IMG/VR virus record: IMGVR_UViG_2648501839_000011
Origin: a virus
Taxonomy: Duplodnaviria > Heunggongvirae > Uroviricota > Caudoviricetes
Strand: one strand, 5' to 3'
Length of the DNA stretch: 6,771 nucleotides
The stretch's first letter is position 1; the number at the start of each line of letters is the position of its first letter. Positions 1-6,705 of the stretch are shown one piece after another. The notes beneath the pieces are model-generated. The model searched no databases and was not told the DNA's origin. It saw only the letters and a program-made list of their open reading frames with translations. The position numbers and the translations under genes were made by a program.

Positions 1-2237
1 TCACCACGGTGAACAATCCCCGCTGGCTCATATTTGCCGCCGGTTCCCGTAAATCCTCCGGTTGCAAAATGGAATTTCGCCGCAGCGGCCTGAATGGCTG
101 TACCGCCTGACGCGGATGCGCCGCCACCAACAGCCCCGCCAATGGCGCTGCCGATACTCCCGACAATCCCCACCATTGCCTGCTTAAGCAGAATTTCTGT
201 CATCATGGACAGCACGGAACGGGTGAAGCTGCGCCAGTTCTGCTCACTGCCGGTCAGCATCGCCGCCATATTCTGTGCAATACCATCAAAGGTCTGCGTG
301 GCAGCACTTTTAACCTGCGAAAAACTGTCCGTCGCACTTTCCGCCCACTCCCCCCAGCCGGACTTCAGCCCGGCCAGCCAGTCACCGCGCAGCATGTCTT
401 CATCCGCCCATGTCTGTTTCAGTGCCCCGGTGACCCGGGCCAGCGCCTGCGGATTATCACCGTACACGTCCCGAAGACGCTGCGCTTCAGACTCCCGCTG
501 CGCCTGCTGTGCCAGCTCATTCAGGCGTTTCTGGTGTTCAACCTTGTCGCCCAGGTCAGCCAGCTGGCGTTTGTACTCCAGCGTCTCTTTCTCATGGGCC
601 AGCAGGGATTTTTCCTGCCAGGATAACTGCCGTTTCGTGGCAGCCTCTTTCAGGACCGCATACTGACTTTCCGCCTTCCATAAATCACGGCGCTGCCGAC
701 TGATTTTCTCATTCGCACCGCTGTGTTTTTCCAGCGTCCTGAGCTCAGCTTCAAGGGCAAGCAGAGCCTCTCTTGCCTGCTCCTCTTCCCTCTCCCCGGC
801 AGAGCGCGTTTTCGGTGATGTATGCTTTTTACCTGTCAGCTCTTCAGCCAGACGGCTGACGGCTTCCTGCTGCCCAGGACCTTTGCTGACGCCTGTTGCA
901 CGCGAGCGGTTGATGTACCCCATTTCCCCCTGGCGTATACGCGCATCCCGTTCCGCAATGGATTTTCTCAGCGCCAGTTCATCGCGTTTTGTTTTCTCAA
1001 TAAATACGCGGTTCTCTTCTGCCAGTTCACCAAACAACGCACCAACGCCGGGCACATTCTTTGTCGTTTCCCAGGCTGACTGAATAAATTCAGCCAGCGC
1101 CAGATCCCCCTGCACAAGCAGCAGCTTCACTTGTTCAACGGTTCCGGCCACCACGTCAGTGATCAGACTGAGTGCCCCCAGTGTATGATCACCTATCCAT
1201 GCCCATGCGTCAGAAGTCCAGGTTTTAACATCGTCCCAGATTTTTTCCACCGGCGTGGCCGCTTTATCAAGTTGCTCCAGACGTGCATTCATGACATCCG
1301 CAAACAGGGACATCGCCTCCGTCACCGCAGCCTGTTTACCTTTCGTGCGCTCAAGCTCATCAATATGGCGTAACTGGGAAACGCTCAGGAAGTTATACTG
1401 CTGATTCAGGGAGGCCAGCGCCTTCACCGGATCTGCTGCAATCCCTTCAAAGGCTTTTTCCACCTTCCCGGCATCGTCCCCCACCGTCTGCAGCCATCTC
1501 TGAGAGGTTTCCCCCATGATCCGTAGCTGCCCGGCGGTATATTTCCCGCTTTCTGCCAGACGGGCCAGATTTTCTGCCGCCTGTCTGATACCACCACCGG
1601 CTTCATCGCTGATCACCCCGGCCATTTTCCACAATTCTGCCGTTGTGGTGGCAGCCGCCCCTCCGGTCAGGATCAGTGAACGCAATAAGGCCCGGTCAGC
1701 CTGCTCTGCCTGCCAGGCGGCGGCAGCAAGCGCGGCCAGTACGGCAACCCCGCCACCTGCCGCCACACGGGCCACCGACATAAATCGTCCCAGCTCACCG
1801 GCATTCCGGGCATTTTCAGCCAGTGCATTTGCCGTATCTGACAGCGACTCCTCTGATGATTCAGAGGCATCCCTGATCCCGAGAAGTTCCTCCTTCAGCA
1901 GGGTAAGCAGGCTGAGCGGTCCACCGAATGAATCGCTGATCTGCCCCCCCTGCTGCAGCATGATAAGGAAGGGATTCTGACCACCGGCAAGCTGAGTGAC
2001 AATATCCGTGAACTGTGCGGGCAGTGTGCGCATGGCAGCCTTATACTGTCCGACTGATATCCCGGCTTTTTGTGCAGCCAGCGCCTGTCGGCTCAGCCCC
2101 TGTTCAACAGTACTGGCGGTTTTTCTGGCATCCGCCTCCAGACTGGAAAAATGACGGTGTACCCGGGCCATCTGTTCATCAAACCGGGCCGCATCCAGAC
2201 TCAAATCAATAACCAGATCACCCGCTGGCTGGGACAT
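1..2237 (-). CDS. H: Tail tape measure protein H, N-terminal ~745 codons; the 3' end of the gene lies beyond position 1
   Basis: ATG at 2237 with GGAGG SD about 8 nt upstream. Hand translation gives MSQPAGDLVIDLSLDAARFDEQMARVHRHFSSLEADA..., matching the lambda gpH N-terminus as I recall it. No complete minus-strand ORF in this frame appears in the track, consistent with an ORF that runs off the window edge; the two short minus-strand ORFs here are in another frame. Start overlaps the end of T by 20 nt. Confidence 0.9.
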   Translation of the reverse strand, partial: MSQPAGDLVIDLSLDAARFDEQMARVHRHFSSLEADARKTASTVEQGLSRQALAAQKAGISVGQYKAAMRTLPAQFTDIVTQLAGGQNPFLIMLQQGGQISDSFGGPLSLLTLLKEELLGIRDASESSEESLSDTANALAENARNAGELGRFMSVARVAAGGGVAVLAALAAAAWQAEQADRALLRSLILTGGAAATTTAELWKMAGVISDEAGGGIRQAAENLARLAESGKYTAGQLRIMGETSQRWLQTVGDDAGKVEKAFEGIAADPVKALASLNQQYNFLSVSQLRHIDELERTKGKQAAVTEAMSLFADVMNARLEQLDKAATPVEKIWDDVKTWTSDAWAWIGDHTLGALSLITDVVAGTVEQVKLLLVQGDLALAEFIQSAWETTKNVPGVGALFGELAEENRVFIEKTKRDELALRKSIAERDARIRQGEMGYINRSRATGVSKGPGQQEAVSRLAEELTGKKHTSPKTRSAGEREEEQAREALLALEAELRTLEKHSGANEKISRQRRDLWKAESQYAVLKEAATKRQLSWQEKSLLAHEKETLEYKRQLADLGDKVEHQKRLNELAQQAQRESEAQRLRDVYGDNPQALARVTGALKQTWADEDMLRGDWLAGLKSGWGEWAESATDSFSQVKSAATQTFDGIAQNMAAMLTGSEQNWRSFTRSVLSMMTEILLKQAMVGIVGSIGSAIGGAVGGGASASGGTAIQAAAAKFHFATGGFTGTGGKYEPAGIVHRG

Positions 2238-3080
2238 ATCTCACACCTCCGGAAATCCCCGCTGAAGCCATCATTAATGCAACATCATCCTCGCTGACAT
2301 CCACCACATCCGCAGAAGGTGAAATATCGCGCCCTCCGTCCCCTCCGAACCGGACGCCTCCGGCAACTCCTGTCGCTTTCTGCATCAGCATTTCTTCCTC
2401 GTCCGGCATCTCCGTCTGCTCTTCCTCACACGCTGGAGCAAGCAGACTGAAATCCGCCGGATGCATATCCGGATCGCCAAAAAACAGGCTGAGTACGGCG
2501 TACATCAGCCCGGAAAAATGAGCGTCCAGTTGGGTATCCTGAAAATAATGCGTGCAGTAAAAACGTCGCCAGTCGGCATATTCGGTGGATGTCATCCCGG
2601 CAAGCATGGCGCGCCAGTCGGGTCTCCCCATCTCTCGCGCCAGTTTCAGGACAAAGTTCAGCTCGCCTTCGAATGCTTTTTTGATGTTACCGGCTCAGTC
2701 GCTTCTGCTTTCCCGGTTTGTTCAGGATCGGCATCGTGCCGGTTATCCAGCATACCTGAAAGATAAAGCACCCGGTTCGTTGCCTGATTCAGTGCATCAG
2801 CAGGCCATCCCAGCATCACTTCACGGCGGATCTGCTGCATCTCTGTCTCCGGAGAGGCCAGAGTGCCTTTGAGGGAATGGGAATGCCATAGCGACATCGC
2901 CACAAGCAGGGATGCCGTTTCCAGATATCGCTGGTTAATGTGCACGACATCATGCTTCGTTGTCTCCTGTTGTTCTGCGTCTGAAACAAACTTTATATAA
3001 TCAAACCGCTGCAGCGCAGACAATTCGGAAAGCGTGACGGACACACCGTTATATTCAAATTGTTCTGTTTTCAGAAACAT
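2218..3080 (-). CDS. T: Tail assembly protein G-T fusion made by -1 frameshift (about 286 aa predicted: G residues 1-134, then T-frame residues AFEGELNFVLKLAREMGRPDW...VRYVPASG)
   Basis: The T frame is open from 2694 down to TGA at 2218..2220 and is -1 relative to G. It has no convincing independent start (the track's 137-aa ORF begins at an internal Met at 2631). This G/T arrangement upstream of the tape measure gene is the conserved organisation in lambda-like tail gene clusters. Confidence 0.8.
2658..3080 (-). CDS. G: Tail assembly chaperone G (140 aa, zero-frame product)
   Basis: ATG at 3080 with GGAGG SD. Product MFLKTEQFEYNGVSVTLSELSALQR... is lambda gpG-like at the N-terminus as I recall it and diverges later. 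Stop TGA at 2658..2660. Confidence 0.88.
   Translation of the reverse strand: MFLKTEQFEYNGVSVTLSELSALQRFDYIKFVSDAEQQETTKHDVVHINQRYLETASLLVAMSLWHSHSLKGTLASPETEMQQIRREVMLGWPADALNQATNRVLYLSGMLDNRHDADPEQTGKAEATEPVTSKKHSKAS
2676..2682 (-). other. Putative -1 programmed ribosomal frameshift heptamer A_AAA_AAG (G into T)
   Basis: In the G frame, codons UCA AAA AAG (S133 K134 K135) give the X_XXY_YYZ heptamer A AAA AAG. It sits in the only productive window, between the last upstream stop in the T frame (TGA 2697..2695) and the G stop (2660..2658). The T frame is -1 relative to G. Confidence 0.7.
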
Positions 3081-3093
3081 GTATTACCTCCGT

Positions 3094-3846
3094 TTACCCT
3101 GCAGCGCCCGCTTCAGTAACGGTGACTTCAGCCACTGCGGCGAACTGACCATTTCCGCTCACCACAGGGATCTGCACCTTACCTGTCGCCACGCCGTTTA
3201 CCGTAATTGTCATATCTTTCACACTAATGGTGGCTTTCGACGGATCGGCGGAAACCGCTCTGAACGTCTTGTCGGTTGCACTTTCCGGCTCAAAAGAAAC
3301 CGTCAGGGTGGTTGTTTTCCCTTTTGCCACCGTACCGGATGTCGGCGTCACCTTAATCGCAGTGACCGGCGTAATTTTGCTGCGTTCTTCCGCTACAGAA
3401 GGTTTGCCCACGTTGGTCACTTTCACCGTGCGGGTGATCACTTCTTTCGCCGTCACGGCCTTACCGATACTGCTGACCCAGCCACGGAACACATCCACCG
3501 TGCCATTTGGGAAACGGATTTTATAGGCCCGCACATCCCCGCTTTCAAACCAGCCTATAAGCCCTTTCTGACCTTCTTCTCCCGGTTTCCAGGCCAGCGT
3601 AAAACTGGTATCTCCTGCAGACTTCTGCCCCTGCCCGGTCGCGGTCCAGTCCGCGTCTTCATCATCCAGGTAGTTATCATCGTAGGGTTCTGCCGTCATC
3701 TCGCCCGGCGTCAGATCCTTCACCTTAGCCAGTCGCTGCCAGTCATCGTCTGACAACGGGTTTGCATAAGCATCACCCTTGCCGTTGTAAACCCACAGAG
3801 TGGTACCGGCACCTTTTACCGGCTCAAGGGGATTTGGTGTTGCCAT
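3094..3846 (-). CDS. V: Major tail tube protein V (250 aa) with C-terminal Ig-like (Big_2-type) domain
   Basis: ATG at 3846 with GAGGA SD overlapping the U stop. The N-terminal part (...GAGTTLWVY...ANPLSD...[12 protein letters not shown]...[25 protein letters not shown]...[41 protein letters not shown]) resembles lambda gpV as I recall it. The C-terminal ~90 aa ([28 protein letters not shown]...[13 protein letters not shown]) has the signature of the Ig-like domain known on gpV. Stop TAA at 3094..3096. Confidence 0.9.
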
Positions 3847-3853
3847 ATCGTCC

Positions 3854-4249
3854 TCACATCTCGTATGTAATGGAATAAGTCAGATCTGCAGAACTCCATA
3901 ACGCCATATCGTCATCACGACGATACTCATAGCCCTGCGTAACCATCGTGGTAATCAGTCCTGCCAGTGCCGGGATATCGCTCATCACCGGATAAATCCG
4001 GGACTCCATCCACGCATCCAGCTCTGAATCCGGCACCTGAGCAGGCAGGAAAACTTCAATATGCAGCTCCGCCTGCCAGGTATCGCTGTCCAGCTCTTCG
4101 CCCGTGTATTCAGCGCCGGTGAGATAAACGGCAACTGCCGGAAAATCCGCCTCATCAAAAACAGCGGGGCGACCATCAAAAAACGTCGCCCCGGTGTCAT
4201 GCTTCTCCAGTGCATCCAGTACGGCTGCACGGAGTTCAGTATGTTTCAT
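3854..4249 (-). CDS. U: Tail tube terminator protein U (131 aa)
   Basis: ATG at 4249 overlaps the Z stop. Product [28 protein letters not shown]...[11 protein letters not shown], lambda gpU-like as I recall it. Stop TGA at 3854..3856. Confidence 0.92.
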
Positions 4250-4824
4250 CGCTTTATTACCATTCTCAGTTGATGCTGCAGCGCATAGCCCAGCTCTTTC
4301 GGAAGACGTTCACGCCGTATCCGTTCAATATTCTGTTTAAACGCCGTGGTAAGCGGCACCGCCATCGGGATTTTCACCACATCAATGGGGTAACGGTTTT
4401 TCCCGGCCACACGCTGCATGACATGCCACCGGCCATTTTTCAGTTGCTGAATAAACGCGCCGGGAATACGACGGTTACCCACCACAAGCACGCTGCCGCC
4501 ACCTTTCAGGGATGAACGCTGCCCCTTTTTACGACGCCTGCGTCGGGACAGGACAACCCGCGCATTCCCCAGCTTGATTACGGGCAAATCCCCCCGGTTA
4601 ACCTTGATTCTGGCCTGCGGATTTTTAACCGTGGCCCTTTTCAGCCTGGCCCTTTCCTTTACCAGTTTCCGGCGTACCTTTGTCTCACGGGCAACCTGTG
4701 ACGCAGACTGCGATATCGCGGATGAAGCAACGCGGTTAATGGCCATTGCTGACGCACCGGGCACCGCCGTTTTGCTGATACGGCTGAGGTTTTCAACGGC
4801 CTGCTCAAGACCTTTTATGGCCAT
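4246..4824 (-). CDS. Z: Tail completion protein Z (192 aa)
   Basis: ATG at 4824 preceded by AAGGGGGA. Product MAIKGLEQAVENLSRISKTAVPGASAMAINRV...[11 protein letters not shown], lambda gpZ-like as I recall it. Stop TGA at 4246..4248 overlaps the U start (ATGA). Confidence 0.92.
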   Translation of the reverse strand: MAIKGLEQAVENLSRISKTAVPGASAMAINRVASSAISQSASQVARETKVRRKLVKERARLKRATVKNPQARIKVNRGDLPVIKLGNARVVLSRRRRRKKGQRSSLKGGGSVLVVGNRRIPGAFIQQLKNGRWHVMQRVAGKNRYPIDVVKIPMAVPLTTAFKQNIERIRRERLPKELGYALQHQLRMVIKR

Positions 4825-4835
4825 ACATCCCCCTT

Positions 4836-5189
4836 TCAGCGGCGACGGTTAACGGCAGGCGGCACGCCACGCCCAAGCCAGAGATGACAGCTTCCGCCAT
4901 CATCCGGCGAAATCCGGTCTATCCAGAAGTTTTCCTCACCGATGGTCAGCGTGTCGCCACGCCGCAGCTGCCGCACATCATCAGTCCGGACAAACAGGGA
5001 CGGGCTGGAGCCTTCAACGCGCACGCCCTGTCCGGCATAGCTGATATTTTCAGGGTCATCAAAAACACCACGTATCACCGCACCGGACTGCTCACCGGAT
5101 GTCATGGTGGCTGACGTTCCCATGTACCCGCGTATCGTTTCATCGGCGCGGGCAATGGCAGCATCGAACAGGTTATCGAAATCAGCCAC
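4836..5189 (-). CDS. FII: Head-tail joining protein FII (117 aa), GTG start
   Basis: Product MADFDNLFDAAIARADETIRGYMGTSAT...HLWLGRGVPPAVNRRR matches lambda gpFII as I recall it. The initiator codon at 5189..5187 is GTG, preceded by SD GGGAGG about 6 nt upstream, directly after the FI stop. Stop TGA at 4836..4838. Confidence 0.92.
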   Translation of the reverse strand: MADFDNLFDAAIARADETIRGYMGTSATMTSGEQSGAVIRGVFDDPENISYAGQGVRVEGSSPSLFVRTDDVRQLRRGDTLTIGEENFWIDRISPDDGGSCHLWLGRGVPPAVNRRR

Positions 5190-5200
5190 AGCGCCTCCCG

Positions 5201-5599
5201 TTATTGCATTCTGGCCAGGCCACGTTCTGTCATTTCGGCTGCCACACCGGCAGAGACACGAAACGCCGTTCCCGGCAGCACAAATGCCACAGGTTCATCC
5301 CGCGTGGCGTGAAGTGCATCGGTATGCAGCGTCACCAGTGCCACAACCGTGACCAGAGCAGCCGTATCCTGAATCACGGTATCCGGCTGCGCTGATACCA
5401 CCTCATTTTCATGTCCGGTCAGCACATTTTCCGGGCTGACAGACGTGTCCTGACCGGCTGCGTCATCCGTGTCATCAAGCTCCTCTTCCAGCTCTGCCAC
5501 ACGGAGCGCCAGTTCTTCTTTCGTCCCCGTCAGGCTGACATCACGGTTCAGTTGTTCACCCAGCGAGCGGAGACGGGCAATCAGTTCATCTTTCGTCAT
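5201..5599 (-). CDS. FI: DNA-packaging / head assembly protein FI (132 aa)
   Basis: From ATG at 5599 the product is MTKDELIARLRSLGEQLNRDVSLTGTKEELALRVAEL...AEMTERGLARMQ, matching lambda gpFI at both ends as I recall it, with differences in the central acidic linker. SD GGAGGAG lies 5-11 nt upstream. Stop TAA at 5201..5203. The track's longer ORF starts at an ATG inside the hairpin stem with no SD. Confidence 0.92.
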   Translation of the reverse strand: MTKDELIARLRSLGEQLNRDVSLTGTKEELALRVAELEEELDDTDDAAGQDTSVSPENVLTGHENEVVSAQPDTVIQDTAALVTVVALVTLHTDALHATRDEPVAFVLPGTAFRVSAGVAAEMTERGLARMQ

Positions 5600-5620
5600 G
5601 AACTCCTCCACAGAGAGAAA

Positions 5621-5638
5621 ATGGCCCCGAAGGGCCAT
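5621..5638 (-). promoter_or_regulatory. RNA hairpin with UUCG tetraloop in the E-FI intergenic region, just upstream of the FI ribosome-binding site
   Basis: Minus strand reads AUGGCCC-UUCG-GGGCCAU, a perfect 7-bp stem with UUCG loop, starting 2 nt after the E stop. It is followed by UUUCUCUCUGUGGAGGAGUUC and then the FI ATG at 5599. Confidence 0.5.
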
Positions 5639-5640
5639 GA

Positions 5641-6666
5641 TTACGCCAGTTGAACGGACACGAACTCATCAGGATCAGCCAGCAGCATCAGCGGTGCTGA
5701 CTGAATCATGGTGAACTCACGCGCCGGATCGCCGGTGGTCACCCAGTTTTTCGGGTAACGGGCAGAGGCGTTAATGCCTTCGCGCTGTGCGTCCGCATCC
5801 TGAATACAGCCATAGGTACGCAGACCGCGTGCCTGAGTGTTCCCCAGCACCATCGTGTTGTCCGGCAGGAAGTTCTTTTTGACGCCGTTTTCCACGTACT
5901 GTCCGGAATACACGACGATGGCCACATCGCCATACATTCCCTTATAAGACACCGCTTTGCCCAGGTCTTTTACCGCTGTCTCCAGCTCGGAATGAGAGCC
6001 GCGACGGGTATCCAGCTTATCCCTGACGGCTTTGAAGGAACGGAACAGCGCCCAGCCTTTCGGATCAAACACGATGATATTCACCACGCCGCTGGCGTTC
6101 AGCGCGTAGGCTTCGATATCGTCGGTCGGGTCATACGTGGACTTGTCACGCTTGCTCCACTCCGTGCCACCGGACTGTGTGATGTTGTTTGCCGCACTGC
6201 GGCCCATATCCACCTCAACCGGATCAAAGGCTTCACCGGTCATGGTGTATTTGCCCTTAAGCACGGCAGAAACTGCCTGCATCTCTTCGACCTGGGCAAT
6301 GGCCAGCTCTTCGTCACGCATGTTCTGCAGGATGATGCGACGGCGGCGGTAAGCCGGGTCCGCCAGATTCTGCGGATCTTCATCCGGCAGGCGACGCAGG
6401 GTCATCTGCGGATTCACCTCATGCTTCGGCTTGACATATCCCGGCGTAAATTCAGAGGTGGAGCCGCCACGGGAACGGATAACCTCACCGGAAACAATCG
6501 GCGAAACGTACAGCGCCATGTTTACCAGTCCCGGAATTTGTGAGAGATAGACTTTCTCCGTGGTGAAGGGATAGCTCTCACGGAAAAAGAGACGCAGAAA
6601 CAGCGGATCAAACTTAAATTTCTGCTCATTTGCCGCCAGCAGCTGGGCGGTTGTGTACATCGACAT
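5641..6666 (-). CDS. E: Major capsid protein E (341 aa)
   Basis: Track ORF 5641..6693; from the internal ATG at 6666 the product begins MSMYTTAQLLAANEQKFKFDPLFLRLFFRESYPF... and ends ...DPDEFVSVQLA, near-identical to lambda gpE as I recall it. The track's start at 6693 is a GTG (translated as M in the track) lying inside the D-E hairpin. Stop is TAA at 5641..5643. Confidence 0.96.
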   Translation of the reverse strand: MSMYTTAQLLAANEQKFKFDPLFLRLFFRESYPFTTEKVYLSQIPGLVNMALYVSPIVSGEVIRSRGGSTSEFTPGYVKPKHEVNPQMTLRRLPDEDPQNLADPAYRRRRIILQNMRDEELAIAQVEEMQAVSAVLKGKYTMTGEAFDPVEVDMGRSAANNITQSGGTEWSKRDKSTYDPTDDIEAYALNASGVVNIIVFDPKGWALFRSFKAVRDKLDTRRGSHSELETAVKDLGKAVSYKGMYGDVAIVVYSGQYVENGVKKNFLPDNTMVLGNTQARGLRTYGCIQDADAQREGINASARYPKNWVTTGDPAREFTMIQSAPLMLLADPDEFVSVQLA

Positions 6667-6680
6667 AAAAAAATCCCGTA

Positions 6681-6705
6681 AAAAAAGCCGCACAGGCGGC
6701 CTTTA
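6681..6705 (-). terminator. Intergenic stem-loop plus U-tract between D and E (intrinsic-terminator-like; may instead act in mRNA stability or processing)
   Basis: Minus-strand transcript reads AAAGGCCGCCUGUGCGGCUUUUUUU: a 5-bp GC stem (GCCGC/GCGGC, extendable by G-U and A-U pairs), CUGU loop, then 7 U. It lies between the D stop (6722) and the E start (6666). Confidence 0.45.

What the first reader, a model, noticed from the sequence alone, without database searches (positions are those of the whole stretch)
2658..2714. G-T programmed -1 frameshift appears to use A_AAA_AAG, not the GGGAAAG heptamer that sits 26 nt upstream in the wrong phase
The T frame is -1 relative to G and opens only after a TGA at 2697..2695, so a productive shift must occur between 2694 and 2661. 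That window contains A_AAA_AAG (2682..2676) in the correct phase (G codons AAA AAG = K134 K135), the same heptamer class as E. coli dnaX. A GGGAAAG heptamer (2714..2708), the sequence I recall as the lambda G-T slippery site, is present but phased as GGG_AAA_G and lies upstream of the T-frame stop, so it cannot yield G-T. If correct, this is a relative of lambda with a relocated or replaced recoding site in a conserved chaperone gene.
Basis: partly seen in the sequence, partly recalled or inferred. Interest (0 to 1): 0.55.

Follow-up and report, generated by a model that had tools for sequence, protein, structure and literature searches.

The report
Ordinary lambda-type G-T frameshift site
This is the standard tail-chaperone frameshift of a lambda-like Shiga-toxin prophage, with the slippery sequence A_AAA_AAG at exactly the spot where lambda has G_GGA_AAG; it is a common variant of a textbook mechanism.

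Summary
On the minus strand, gene G (3080..2658) ends with TCA_AAA_AAG. A_AAA_AAG (2682..2676) is in the right phase. The -1 (T) frame opens after TGA 2697..2695. The upstream GGGAAAG (2714..2708) is phased GGG_AAA_G and lies before that stop.

A nucleotide alignment with lambda puts lambda's GCG_GGA_AAG column for column on the window's TCA_AAA_AAG. The heptamer was therefore replaced in place, not relocated. The upstream GGGAAAG is a chance match: about 1.2 are expected per window, and it reads GGGAAAA in VT1-Sakai.

Among 189 related loci, 48 carry AAAAAAG, 135 GGGAAAG and 6 GGAAAAG, always at the same position. A_AAG is the constant part. Published E. coli reporter data give the two canonical heptamers nearly equal efficiency, so the swap should not change the G:GT ratio.

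This allele occurs in 644 of 5426 complete E. coli genomes. Databases annotate G and T separately, without a slippage join.

A hairpin 8 nt downstream is predicted and conserved, with one compensatory change, but it is unproven as a stimulator. Low interest: a known mechanism and a known heptamer class.

The parts
2658..3080 (-). Gene G, tail assembly chaperone (140 aa), zero frame
   Evidence: ORF. Pfam PF06894 Phage_TAC_2, E 6.5e-35. 43 % identical to lambda gpG.
2676..2682 (-). Slippery heptamer A_AAA_AAG (codons K134 K135 of G), the inferred -1 frameshift site
   Evidence: Phase read. Aligns with lambda G_GGA_AAG. It is the only in-phase heptamer in the overlap, and it is conserved in 48 loci of this allele.
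2695..2697 (-). TGA in the -1 frame, the upstream limit of the productive shift window
   Evidence: In some relatives (for example L032, ACAGAG) this stop is absent, with no change of heptamer.
2218..2676 (-). T segment in the -1 frame, read from the G of the heptamer to TGA 2220..2218. Together with G codons 1-135 it gives a 287-aa GT fusion.
   Evidence: Pfam PF06223 Phage_tail_T, E 1.3e-11. The fusion is colinear with lambda gpGT at 57 % identity. T-frame peptide conservation starts at the heptamer, upstream of any ATG.
2708..2714 (-). Out-of-phase GGGAAAG (GGG_AAA_G), non-functional look-alike
   Evidence: Phase. It lies upstream of the -1 stop. 1.19 copies are expected by chance. It reads GGGAAAA in VT1-Sakai and aligns with unrelated lambda sequence.
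2599..2667 (-). Predicted hairpin 8 nt downstream of the heptamer. Outer stem GGCGAGC (2667..2661) pairs with GCUUGCC (2605..2599). Inner G+C-rich stem 2642..2636 pairs with 2613..2607. A possible moderate stimulator, unproven.
   Evidence: MFE -34.4 kcal/mol, z -3.15. The same fold appears in lambda, z -2.69. The outer stem is paired in all 19 distinct sequences, with one G-C to A-U compensatory change. It has the lowest z-score of the G-T region, though other windows come close.
2629..2631 (-). Internal ATG used by RefSeq/GenBank as the start of a free-standing 'T' ORF; probably not a real start
   Evidence: Annotations. This codon is TTT (Phe) in the Kluyvera, Atlantibacter and Entomohabitans homologues. 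No Shine-Dalgarno sequence at a proper distance.
3094..3846 (-). Gene V, major tail tube protein, upstream neighbour
   Evidence: PF16461 E 1e-68 plus Big_2.
2..2237 (-). Gene H, tape measure protein, 5' part (open to the window end), downstream neighbour overlapping the end of T
   Evidence: 745 codons without a stop; the N-terminus MSQPAGDLVIDLSLDAARFDEQMARV is lambda-H-like (recognised from my own knowledge of lambda H, not aligned here). Homologous region annotated as tape measure.

Best explanation
The window carries the late (head-tail) operon of a lambda-like Shiga-toxin-converting prophage of E. coli. Most ribosomes translating G stop at TGA 2660..2658 and make the 140-aa chaperone gpG. 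When the P and A sites hold AAA(K134) and AAG(K135) of A_AAA_AAG, a few per cent slip back one nucleotide. Both lysyl-tRNAs re-pair to AAA/AAA, and reading continues in the T frame to make a 287-aa gpGT (...PVTSKK/AFEGELNF...). By analogy with lambda, the G part binds the tape-measure protein H and the T part recruits the tail-tube protein V. The heptamer sits at the very position of lambda's G_GGA_AAG and differs only in the three nucleotides that serve the P-site tRNA. The A-site tetramer A_AAG is the invariant core. The swap is expected to be neutral for the G:GT ratio. Shown here: the anatomy, phase, homology and conservation. Inferred: that slippage occurs, and its rate.
For: - Synteny E-FI-FII-Z-U-V-G-T-H, with Pfam hits for every gene.
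- The G/T region is 100 % identical to STEC chromosomes (O26, O111, O103) and 99.9 % identical to an Stx1a-converting phage.
- Column-for-column alignment of the two heptamers.
- The GT fusion is colinear with lambda gpGT, with the junction at residue 135 in both.
- It is the only in-phase X_XXY_YYZ in the overlap in all 83 loci scored, 40 AAAAAAG and 43 GGGAAAG, always 22 nt before the G stop.
- A wider set of 189 loci gives 48 AAAAAAG, 135 GGGAAAG and 6 GGAAAAG.
- T-frame amino-acid conservation begins at the heptamer (AFEGELNF / VFDGELSF / VLASELTF), and the internal ATG is missing in some lineages.
- Measured -1 frameshifting in E. coli reporters for AAAAAAG versus GGGAAAG: 0.291 vs 0.277 % without a stimulator, 4.26 vs 3.80 % with the IS911 stimulators, 39.0 vs 43.0 % with the IS3 pseudoknot (PMC4066793 Table S3).
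- Lambda G-T frameshifting and its roughly 30:1 product ratio are established (PMC5009743).
Against: No experiment exists for this allele, neither a junction peptide nor a reporter assay. Every database record checked annotates T as a separate ORF. Heptamer counts in the window are not themselves above chance. The reporter value without a stimulator (about 0.3 %) is roughly ten times below lambda's about 3 %, so context must contribute in a way not yet defined.
Confidence: 0.9

Rival explanations
1. T is made as an independent protein by internal initiation at ATG 2631, as RefSeq and GenBank annotate it, and no frameshift is needed.
For: All annotated relatives list a free-standing T CDS from this ATG or a nearby one.
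Against: The T-frame peptide is conserved for 15 codons upstream of that ATG, right up to the heptamer. The ATG is TTT in the Kluyvera, Atlantibacter and Entomohabitans homologues. No Shine-Dalgarno sequence at a usable distance precedes it (GCGCGAGAG directly abuts the ATG). In lambda the T sequence is made as the GT fusion (PMC5009743).
Confidence: 0.04
2. The frame change is made by RNA polymerase slipping on the A6 run (transcriptional slippage) rather than by the ribosome.
For: The site contains six consecutive A residues. Homopolymeric A or T runs can cause transcriptional slippage (PMC3711429).
Against: Slippage-prone runs cited in the literature are A or T runs of about 8-9 or more; here the run is 6. 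The homologous GGGAAAG and GGAAAAG alleles have only 3-4 A residues yet keep the same architecture. That argues for a tRNA re-pairing mechanism centred on A_AAG.
Confidence: 0.03
3. The upstream GGGAAAG (2714..2708) is the true or ancestral lambda site, and the T-frame stop at 2697..2695 is a sequencing error or recent mutation.
For: The heptamer has the same letters as lambda's site.
Against: It is in the wrong phase (GGG_AAA_G). It aligns with non-homologous lambda sequence (ACAGAGGACGCC region) and reads GGGAAAA in VT1-Sakai. The TGA is present in most of the independent assemblies of this allele. Where the TGA is absent (L032 type), the only in-phase heptamer is still AAAAAAG.
Confidence: 0.01

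Closest known systems
Bacteriophage lambda G / G-T programmed -1 frameshift (Levin, Hendrix and Casjens 1993; Xu, Hendrix and Duda 2004, 2013, 2014; as summarised in PMC5009743)
   Same: Homologous G and T sequences (43 % and about 70 % identity). Same gene order V-G-T-H. Same position of the slip site (junction after residue 135). Same A-site tetramer A_AAG. Same distance to the G stop. Same predicted downstream fold.
   Different: The three nucleotides that serve the P-site tRNA are AAA instead of GGG, so codon 134 is AAA (Lys) instead of GGA (Gly). G is a divergent allele, about 50 % nucleotide identity in its middle and 3' part.
E. coli dnaX A_AAA_AAG -1 frameshift
   Same: Identical heptamer, and the same reliance on the E. 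coli lysyl-tRNA (UUU anticodon, mnm5s2U34) slipping on A_AAG (PMC5009743, PMC3711429).
   Different: dnaX has an upstream Shine-Dalgarno-like stimulator and a strong stem-loop, shifts about 50 % of ribosomes, and yields a shorter product. Here no SD-like element lies 6-17 nt upstream. The hairpin is only predicted, the expected rate is a few per cent, and the product is longer.
ECs1801 tail assembly chaperone of Sakai prophage Sp9 (cluster A_AAA_AAG_25 of Sharma et al. 2014, PMC4066793)
   Same: An E. coli O157 prophage tail-chaperone gene with an in-phase A_AAA_AAG near its 3' end. It is listed there as a safely inferred -1 frameshift case.
   Different: An unrelated chaperone family (BLASTP E 1.2 against this G). 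It belongs to an HK97-like structural module, and its heptamer directly abuts the stop codon.

Membership tests
Lambda-type gpG/gpGT tail assembly chaperone with programmed -1 frameshift | Upstream ORF is a gpG homologue | tested here: met
   PF06894, E 6.5e-35, covering 1-123 of 126 profile positions. 43 % identity to lambda gpG.
Lambda-type gpG/gpGT tail assembly chaperone with programmed -1 frameshift | T domain is encoded in the -1 frame, overlaps the 3' end of G, and has no conserved start of its own | tested here: met
   PF06223, E 1.3e-11. The -1 frame is open 2694..2218. The internal ATG is not conserved.
Lambda-type gpG/gpGT tail assembly chaperone with programmed -1 frameshift | Located between the major tail protein gene and the tape measure gene | tested here: met
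   V lies at 3846..3094 and H starts at 2237.
Lambda-type gpG/gpGT tail assembly chaperone with programmed -1 frameshift | In-phase X_XXY_YYZ slippery heptamer inside the overlap, at the position homologous to lambda's | tested here: met
   A_AAA_AAG at 2682..2676 aligns with lambda G_GGA_AAG. It is the only in-phase heptamer.
Lambda-type gpG/gpGT tail assembly chaperone with programmed -1 frameshift | A GT fusion protein is actually produced at a few per cent of G and is required for tail assembly | not testable with these tools
   Needs western blot or mass spectrometry, plus genetics on an induced lysogen.
dnaX-type tripartite frameshift signal | A_AAA_AAG heptamer | tested here: met
dnaX-type tripartite frameshift signal | Shine-Dalgarno-like stimulator about 6-17 nt upstream of the heptamer | tested here: not met
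   The sequence 2699..2688 is ACTGAGCCGGTA. It contains no GGAG, GAGG or AGGA. Sharma et al. also score the lambda gpG (G_GGA_AAG_4) cluster as SD = N.
dnaX-type tripartite frameshift signal | Functional downstream stem-loop 5-9 nt from the heptamer | tested here: inconclusive
   A hairpin with an 8-nt spacer is predicted (z -3.15) and conserved, with a single compensatory event. The region also encodes a highly conserved peptide. The literature regards lambda G-T as free of stimulators.

The most novel reading that the evidence does not exclude
The conserved Y-shaped hairpin that starts 5-8 nt after the heptamer (2667..2599 here) may be a real, moderate stimulator of G-T frameshifting across the lambda G/T family. 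It has a 7-bp outer stem paired in all 19 distinct sequences and a G+C-rich inner stem. This would run against the textbook statement that lambda G-T needs no stimulatory signal. It would explain two things. First, bare G_GGA_AAG or A_AAA_AAG give only about 0.3 % in reporters but about 4 % with a moderate stimulator, which is close to lambda's natural level. Second, Kluyvera, Atlantibacter and Entomohabitans prophages get by with the non-canonical G_GAA_AAG while having a longer stem (9-10 bp) at a 5-nt spacing.
Probability: 0.3. Interest if true: 0.4.

Novelty: already known. Interest (0 to 1): 0.1.

Why it matters
The practical value is for annotation. In the Stx-phage and E. coli RefSeq records inspected here, T is annotated as a free-standing ORF from an internal ATG instead of as a G-T fusion joined at A_AAA_AAG, and this allele occurs at 1445 places in 644 of 5426 complete E. 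coli genomes. The comparison also shows that the family keeps the A-site tetramer A_AAG fixed while the P-site triplet drifts among GGG, AAA and GGA. That fits published data showing that cognate A-site re-pairing dominates bacterial -1 frameshifting. None of this changes current understanding.

Tried and rejected
1. Upstream GGGAAAG as a displaced lambda site: rejected on phase, alignment and non-conservation.
2. Equating this allele with the published cluster A_AAA_AAG_25 / ECs1801 of Sharma et al.: rejected. ECs1801 is an unrelated chaperone family in prophage Sp9.
3. Looking for records that already annotate a slippage join at this heptamer: none found in VT1-Sakai, ASU11, PhiR12_2_star, Stx2_95 or RefSeq O26.
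4. Widening the diversity for a covariation test of the hairpin with a metagenome scan on the T domain: it returned only close relatives (76 % identity or more) and added no new stem variants.
5. Reading Xu et al. 2004, 2013 and 2014 directly: not held in the library. Statements about them rest on the Atkins review and on my own knowledge.
6. Upstream SD-like stimulator: none seen.

Full report
**What the window is.** All long ORFs lie on the minus strand and form the lambda late operon. They are E major capsid (6693..5641), FI (5638..5201), FII (5189..4836), Z (4824..4246), U (4249..3854), V (3846..3094) and G (3080..2658). A T reading frame follows, then the start of H at 2237. Each gene has a strong Pfam match. 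H stays open for 745 codons to the window end. The G-T stretch is 100 % identical to chromosomal prophages of E. coli O26, O111 and O103 STEC strains. It is 99.9 % identical to Stx1a-converting phage Stx1_9793 and 94.7 % identical to VT1-Sakai.

**Checking the observation.** On the minus strand the end of G reads ...GAA CAA ACC GGG AAA GCA GAA GCG ACT GAG CCG GTA ACA TCA AAA AAG CAT TCG AAG GCG AGC TGA. Counting from ATG 3080:
- GGG AAA G at 2714..2708 begins on a codon boundary.
- TGA at 2697..2695 is in the -1 frame.
- TCA AAA AAG places A_AAA_AAG at 2682..2676 in X_XXY_YYZ phase (K134 K135).

Every coordinate is right. Counts of the two heptamers in the window are what chance gives: AAAAAAG 2 against 0.88 expected, GGGAAAG 1 against 1.19. 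The case therefore rests on phase, position and conservation, not on occurrence.

**Replaced, not relocated.** A nucleotide alignment of the junction with lambda (J02459) and VT1-Sakai puts lambda's GCG GGA AAG in the same columns as the window's TCA AAA AAG. The protein alignment likewise puts lambda A-G-K on the window's S-K-K. The predicted 287-aa GT fusion is colinear with lambda's 279-aa gpGT. They share 57 % identity with no gap near the junction, which falls after residue 135 in both. The upstream GGGAAAG aligns with unrelated lambda sequence and reads GGGAAAA in VT1-Sakai. It is a coincidence, not a relic.

**How general it is.** In 83 loci from IMG/VR, lambda, VT1-Sakai and this window, the only in-phase X_XXY_YYZ inside the G/T overlap is AAAAAAG (40 loci) or GGGAAAG (43 loci). 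It always starts 22 nt before the G stop. Adding GTDB genomes and metagenome contigs gives 48 AAAAAAG, 135 GGGAAAG and 6 GGAAAAG. The last group comes from Kluyvera, Atlantibacter and Entomohabitans prophages and is G_GAA_AAG, which is not a canonical heptamer. The constant element of the family is therefore the A-site tetramer A_AAG, while the P-site triplet varies among GGG, AAA and GGA.

The heptamer travels with the G allele. G proteins ending ...EPVTSKKHSKAS have AAAAAAG, and those ending ...SAGKCSTVS or ...SAGKSSTAS have GGGAAAG, even when the T domain is close to the window's (L099 class). Nucleotide identity to lambda jumps from about 50 % to about 90 % right at the heptamer.

An 81-nt probe of the AAAAAAG junction hits 1445 places in 644 of 5426 complete E. 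coli genomes. The lambda-type junction hits 3488 genomes.

**Evidence that T is read through the shift.** The T-frame peptide is conserved from the heptamer onward: AFEGELNFVLKLAREM, VFDGELSFALKLAREM and VLASELTFVLKLAREF. That is 15 codons upstream of the ATG (2631) that RefSeq and GenBank use as the T start. The ATG is replaced by TTT in the Kluyvera-type loci and has no usable Shine-Dalgarno sequence. Independent initiation is therefore unlikely.

Transcriptional slippage is also unlikely. The A run is only 6 long, and the homologous alleles have 3-4 A residues.

**Expected efficiency.** Sharma et al. 2014 measured all 64 heptamers in E. coli. For AAAAAAG against GGGAAAG the values are 0.291 vs 0.277 % without a stimulator, 4.26 vs 3.80 % with the IS911 stimulators, and 39.0 vs 43.0 % with the IS3 pseudoknot (PMC4066793 Table S3). 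The two are functionally interchangeable. This explains why both persist in one gene family whose function depends on a fixed G:GT ratio, about 30:1 in lambda (PMC5009743). The same paper lists a prophage tail-chaperone cluster with A_AAA_AAG (ECs1801) as a safely inferred case. I checked it, and ECs1801 is an unrelated chaperone family in Sakai prophage Sp9. AAAAAAG has also been proposed for the G-T-like shift of Paenibacillus larvae phages (PMC6003738). The heptamer class in this role is not new.

**Downstream structure.** The 86 nt after the heptamer fold to -34.4 kcal/mol, z -3.15, with 0 of 200 shuffles as stable. The lambda equivalent gives -36.5 kcal/mol, z -2.69.

The shared architecture has two parts:
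- Outer stem GGCGAGC (2667..2661, the last codons of G) pairs with GCUUGCC (2605..2599) and starts 8 nt after the heptamer.
- It encloses a G+C-rich inner stem (2642..2636 with 2613..2607).

On 19 distinct sequences the outer stem is paired in every one. It shows one G-C to A-U double change (Kluyvera lineage) and several U-G/C-G changes. Overall 90 % of cells pair, against 22-43 % when partners are slid. This stretch has the lowest z-score of the whole G-T region, but two windows inside T come close. In the G_GAA_AAG lineages the stem is extended to 9-10 bp with a 5-nt spacer.

Against a functional role:
- The region encodes the most conserved part of T (ELNFVLKLAREMGRPDWRAMLAGM).
- There is only one independent compensatory event.
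- Sharma et al. found a hairpin in just 51 % of their gpG cluster, with no excess stability.
- The Atkins review states that the phage G-T shift seems not to involve stimulators.

I rate a real stimulatory role at about 0.3.

**Verdict.** This is the lambda G-T mechanism with a known, equally efficient heptamer, in a very common prophage allele. The novelty is nil beyond an annotation gap. The only open point is whether the conserved hairpin contributes.

Noticed in passing
L100-L103, L105, L106 (Kluyvera, Entomohabitans, Atlantibacter prophages), homologous to window 2682..2676: These G-T loci have G_GAA_AAG at the slip position, which is not an X_XXY_YYZ heptamer because P-site GAA would re-pair to GGA. 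They lack the internal ATG of 'T' and have a longer predicted downstream stem (9-10 bp, 5-nt spacer). This suggests tetramer-type A_AAG slippage helped by structure.
   Followed up: partly
L085-L097 (GTDB species-representative assemblies labelled Neobacillus, Oceanobacillus, Pseudomonas, Kitasatospora, Chromatium, Shewanella, Paenibacillus, Leeuwenhoekiella, Pseudoxanthomonas, Psychrobacter and others): Contigs, where coverage is given about 1x, carry phage lambda V-G-T-H DNA that is 100 % identical to J02459 over up to 1101 nt. This is almost certainly laboratory lambda contamination of those assemblies.
   Followed up: yes
window 2218..2631 (-) and homologous CDS in RefSeq/GenBank records: T is annotated as a free-standing ORF from an internal ATG, and no record inspected joins G and T by ribosomal slippage. 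This looks like a systematic annotation gap for this common allele.
   Followed up: yes
window about 2690..2560 (-): Nucleotide identity to lambda rises abruptly from about 50 % (the 3' two-thirds of G) to about 90 % just at the heptamer. This is consistent with a mosaic recombination joint, or with strong constraint on the T N-terminus.
   Followed up: partly
L114 3864..6475 (E. coli O26 RM10386), homologous to window H (2237 downward): The tape measure gene next to an identical G-T is flagged 'frameshifted' (pseudogene) in that RefSeq genome. In the window H is open for all 745 codons available.
   Followed up: no
L115 10002..10376 (ECs_1801, Sakai prophage Sp9): An unrelated tail-chaperone gene ends AGA_AAA_AAG_TAG, with the slippery heptamer directly abutting its stop codon. 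A different family has converged on the same heptamer.
   Followed up: partly
L113 (Shigella flexneri SFBU0723 chromosome): The G homologue is cut to 29 codons by a premature stop and the downstream T region carries indels. This looks like a decaying prophage remnant.
   Followed up: no
window 5201..5638 (-): The longest FI ORF (145 aa, starting MALRGHFLSVEEF) begins 14 codons upstream of the RefSeq start (131 aa, presumably starting at MTKDEL, as inferred from its length). The Pfam match begins at residue 15, which favours the shorter form.
   Followed up: no
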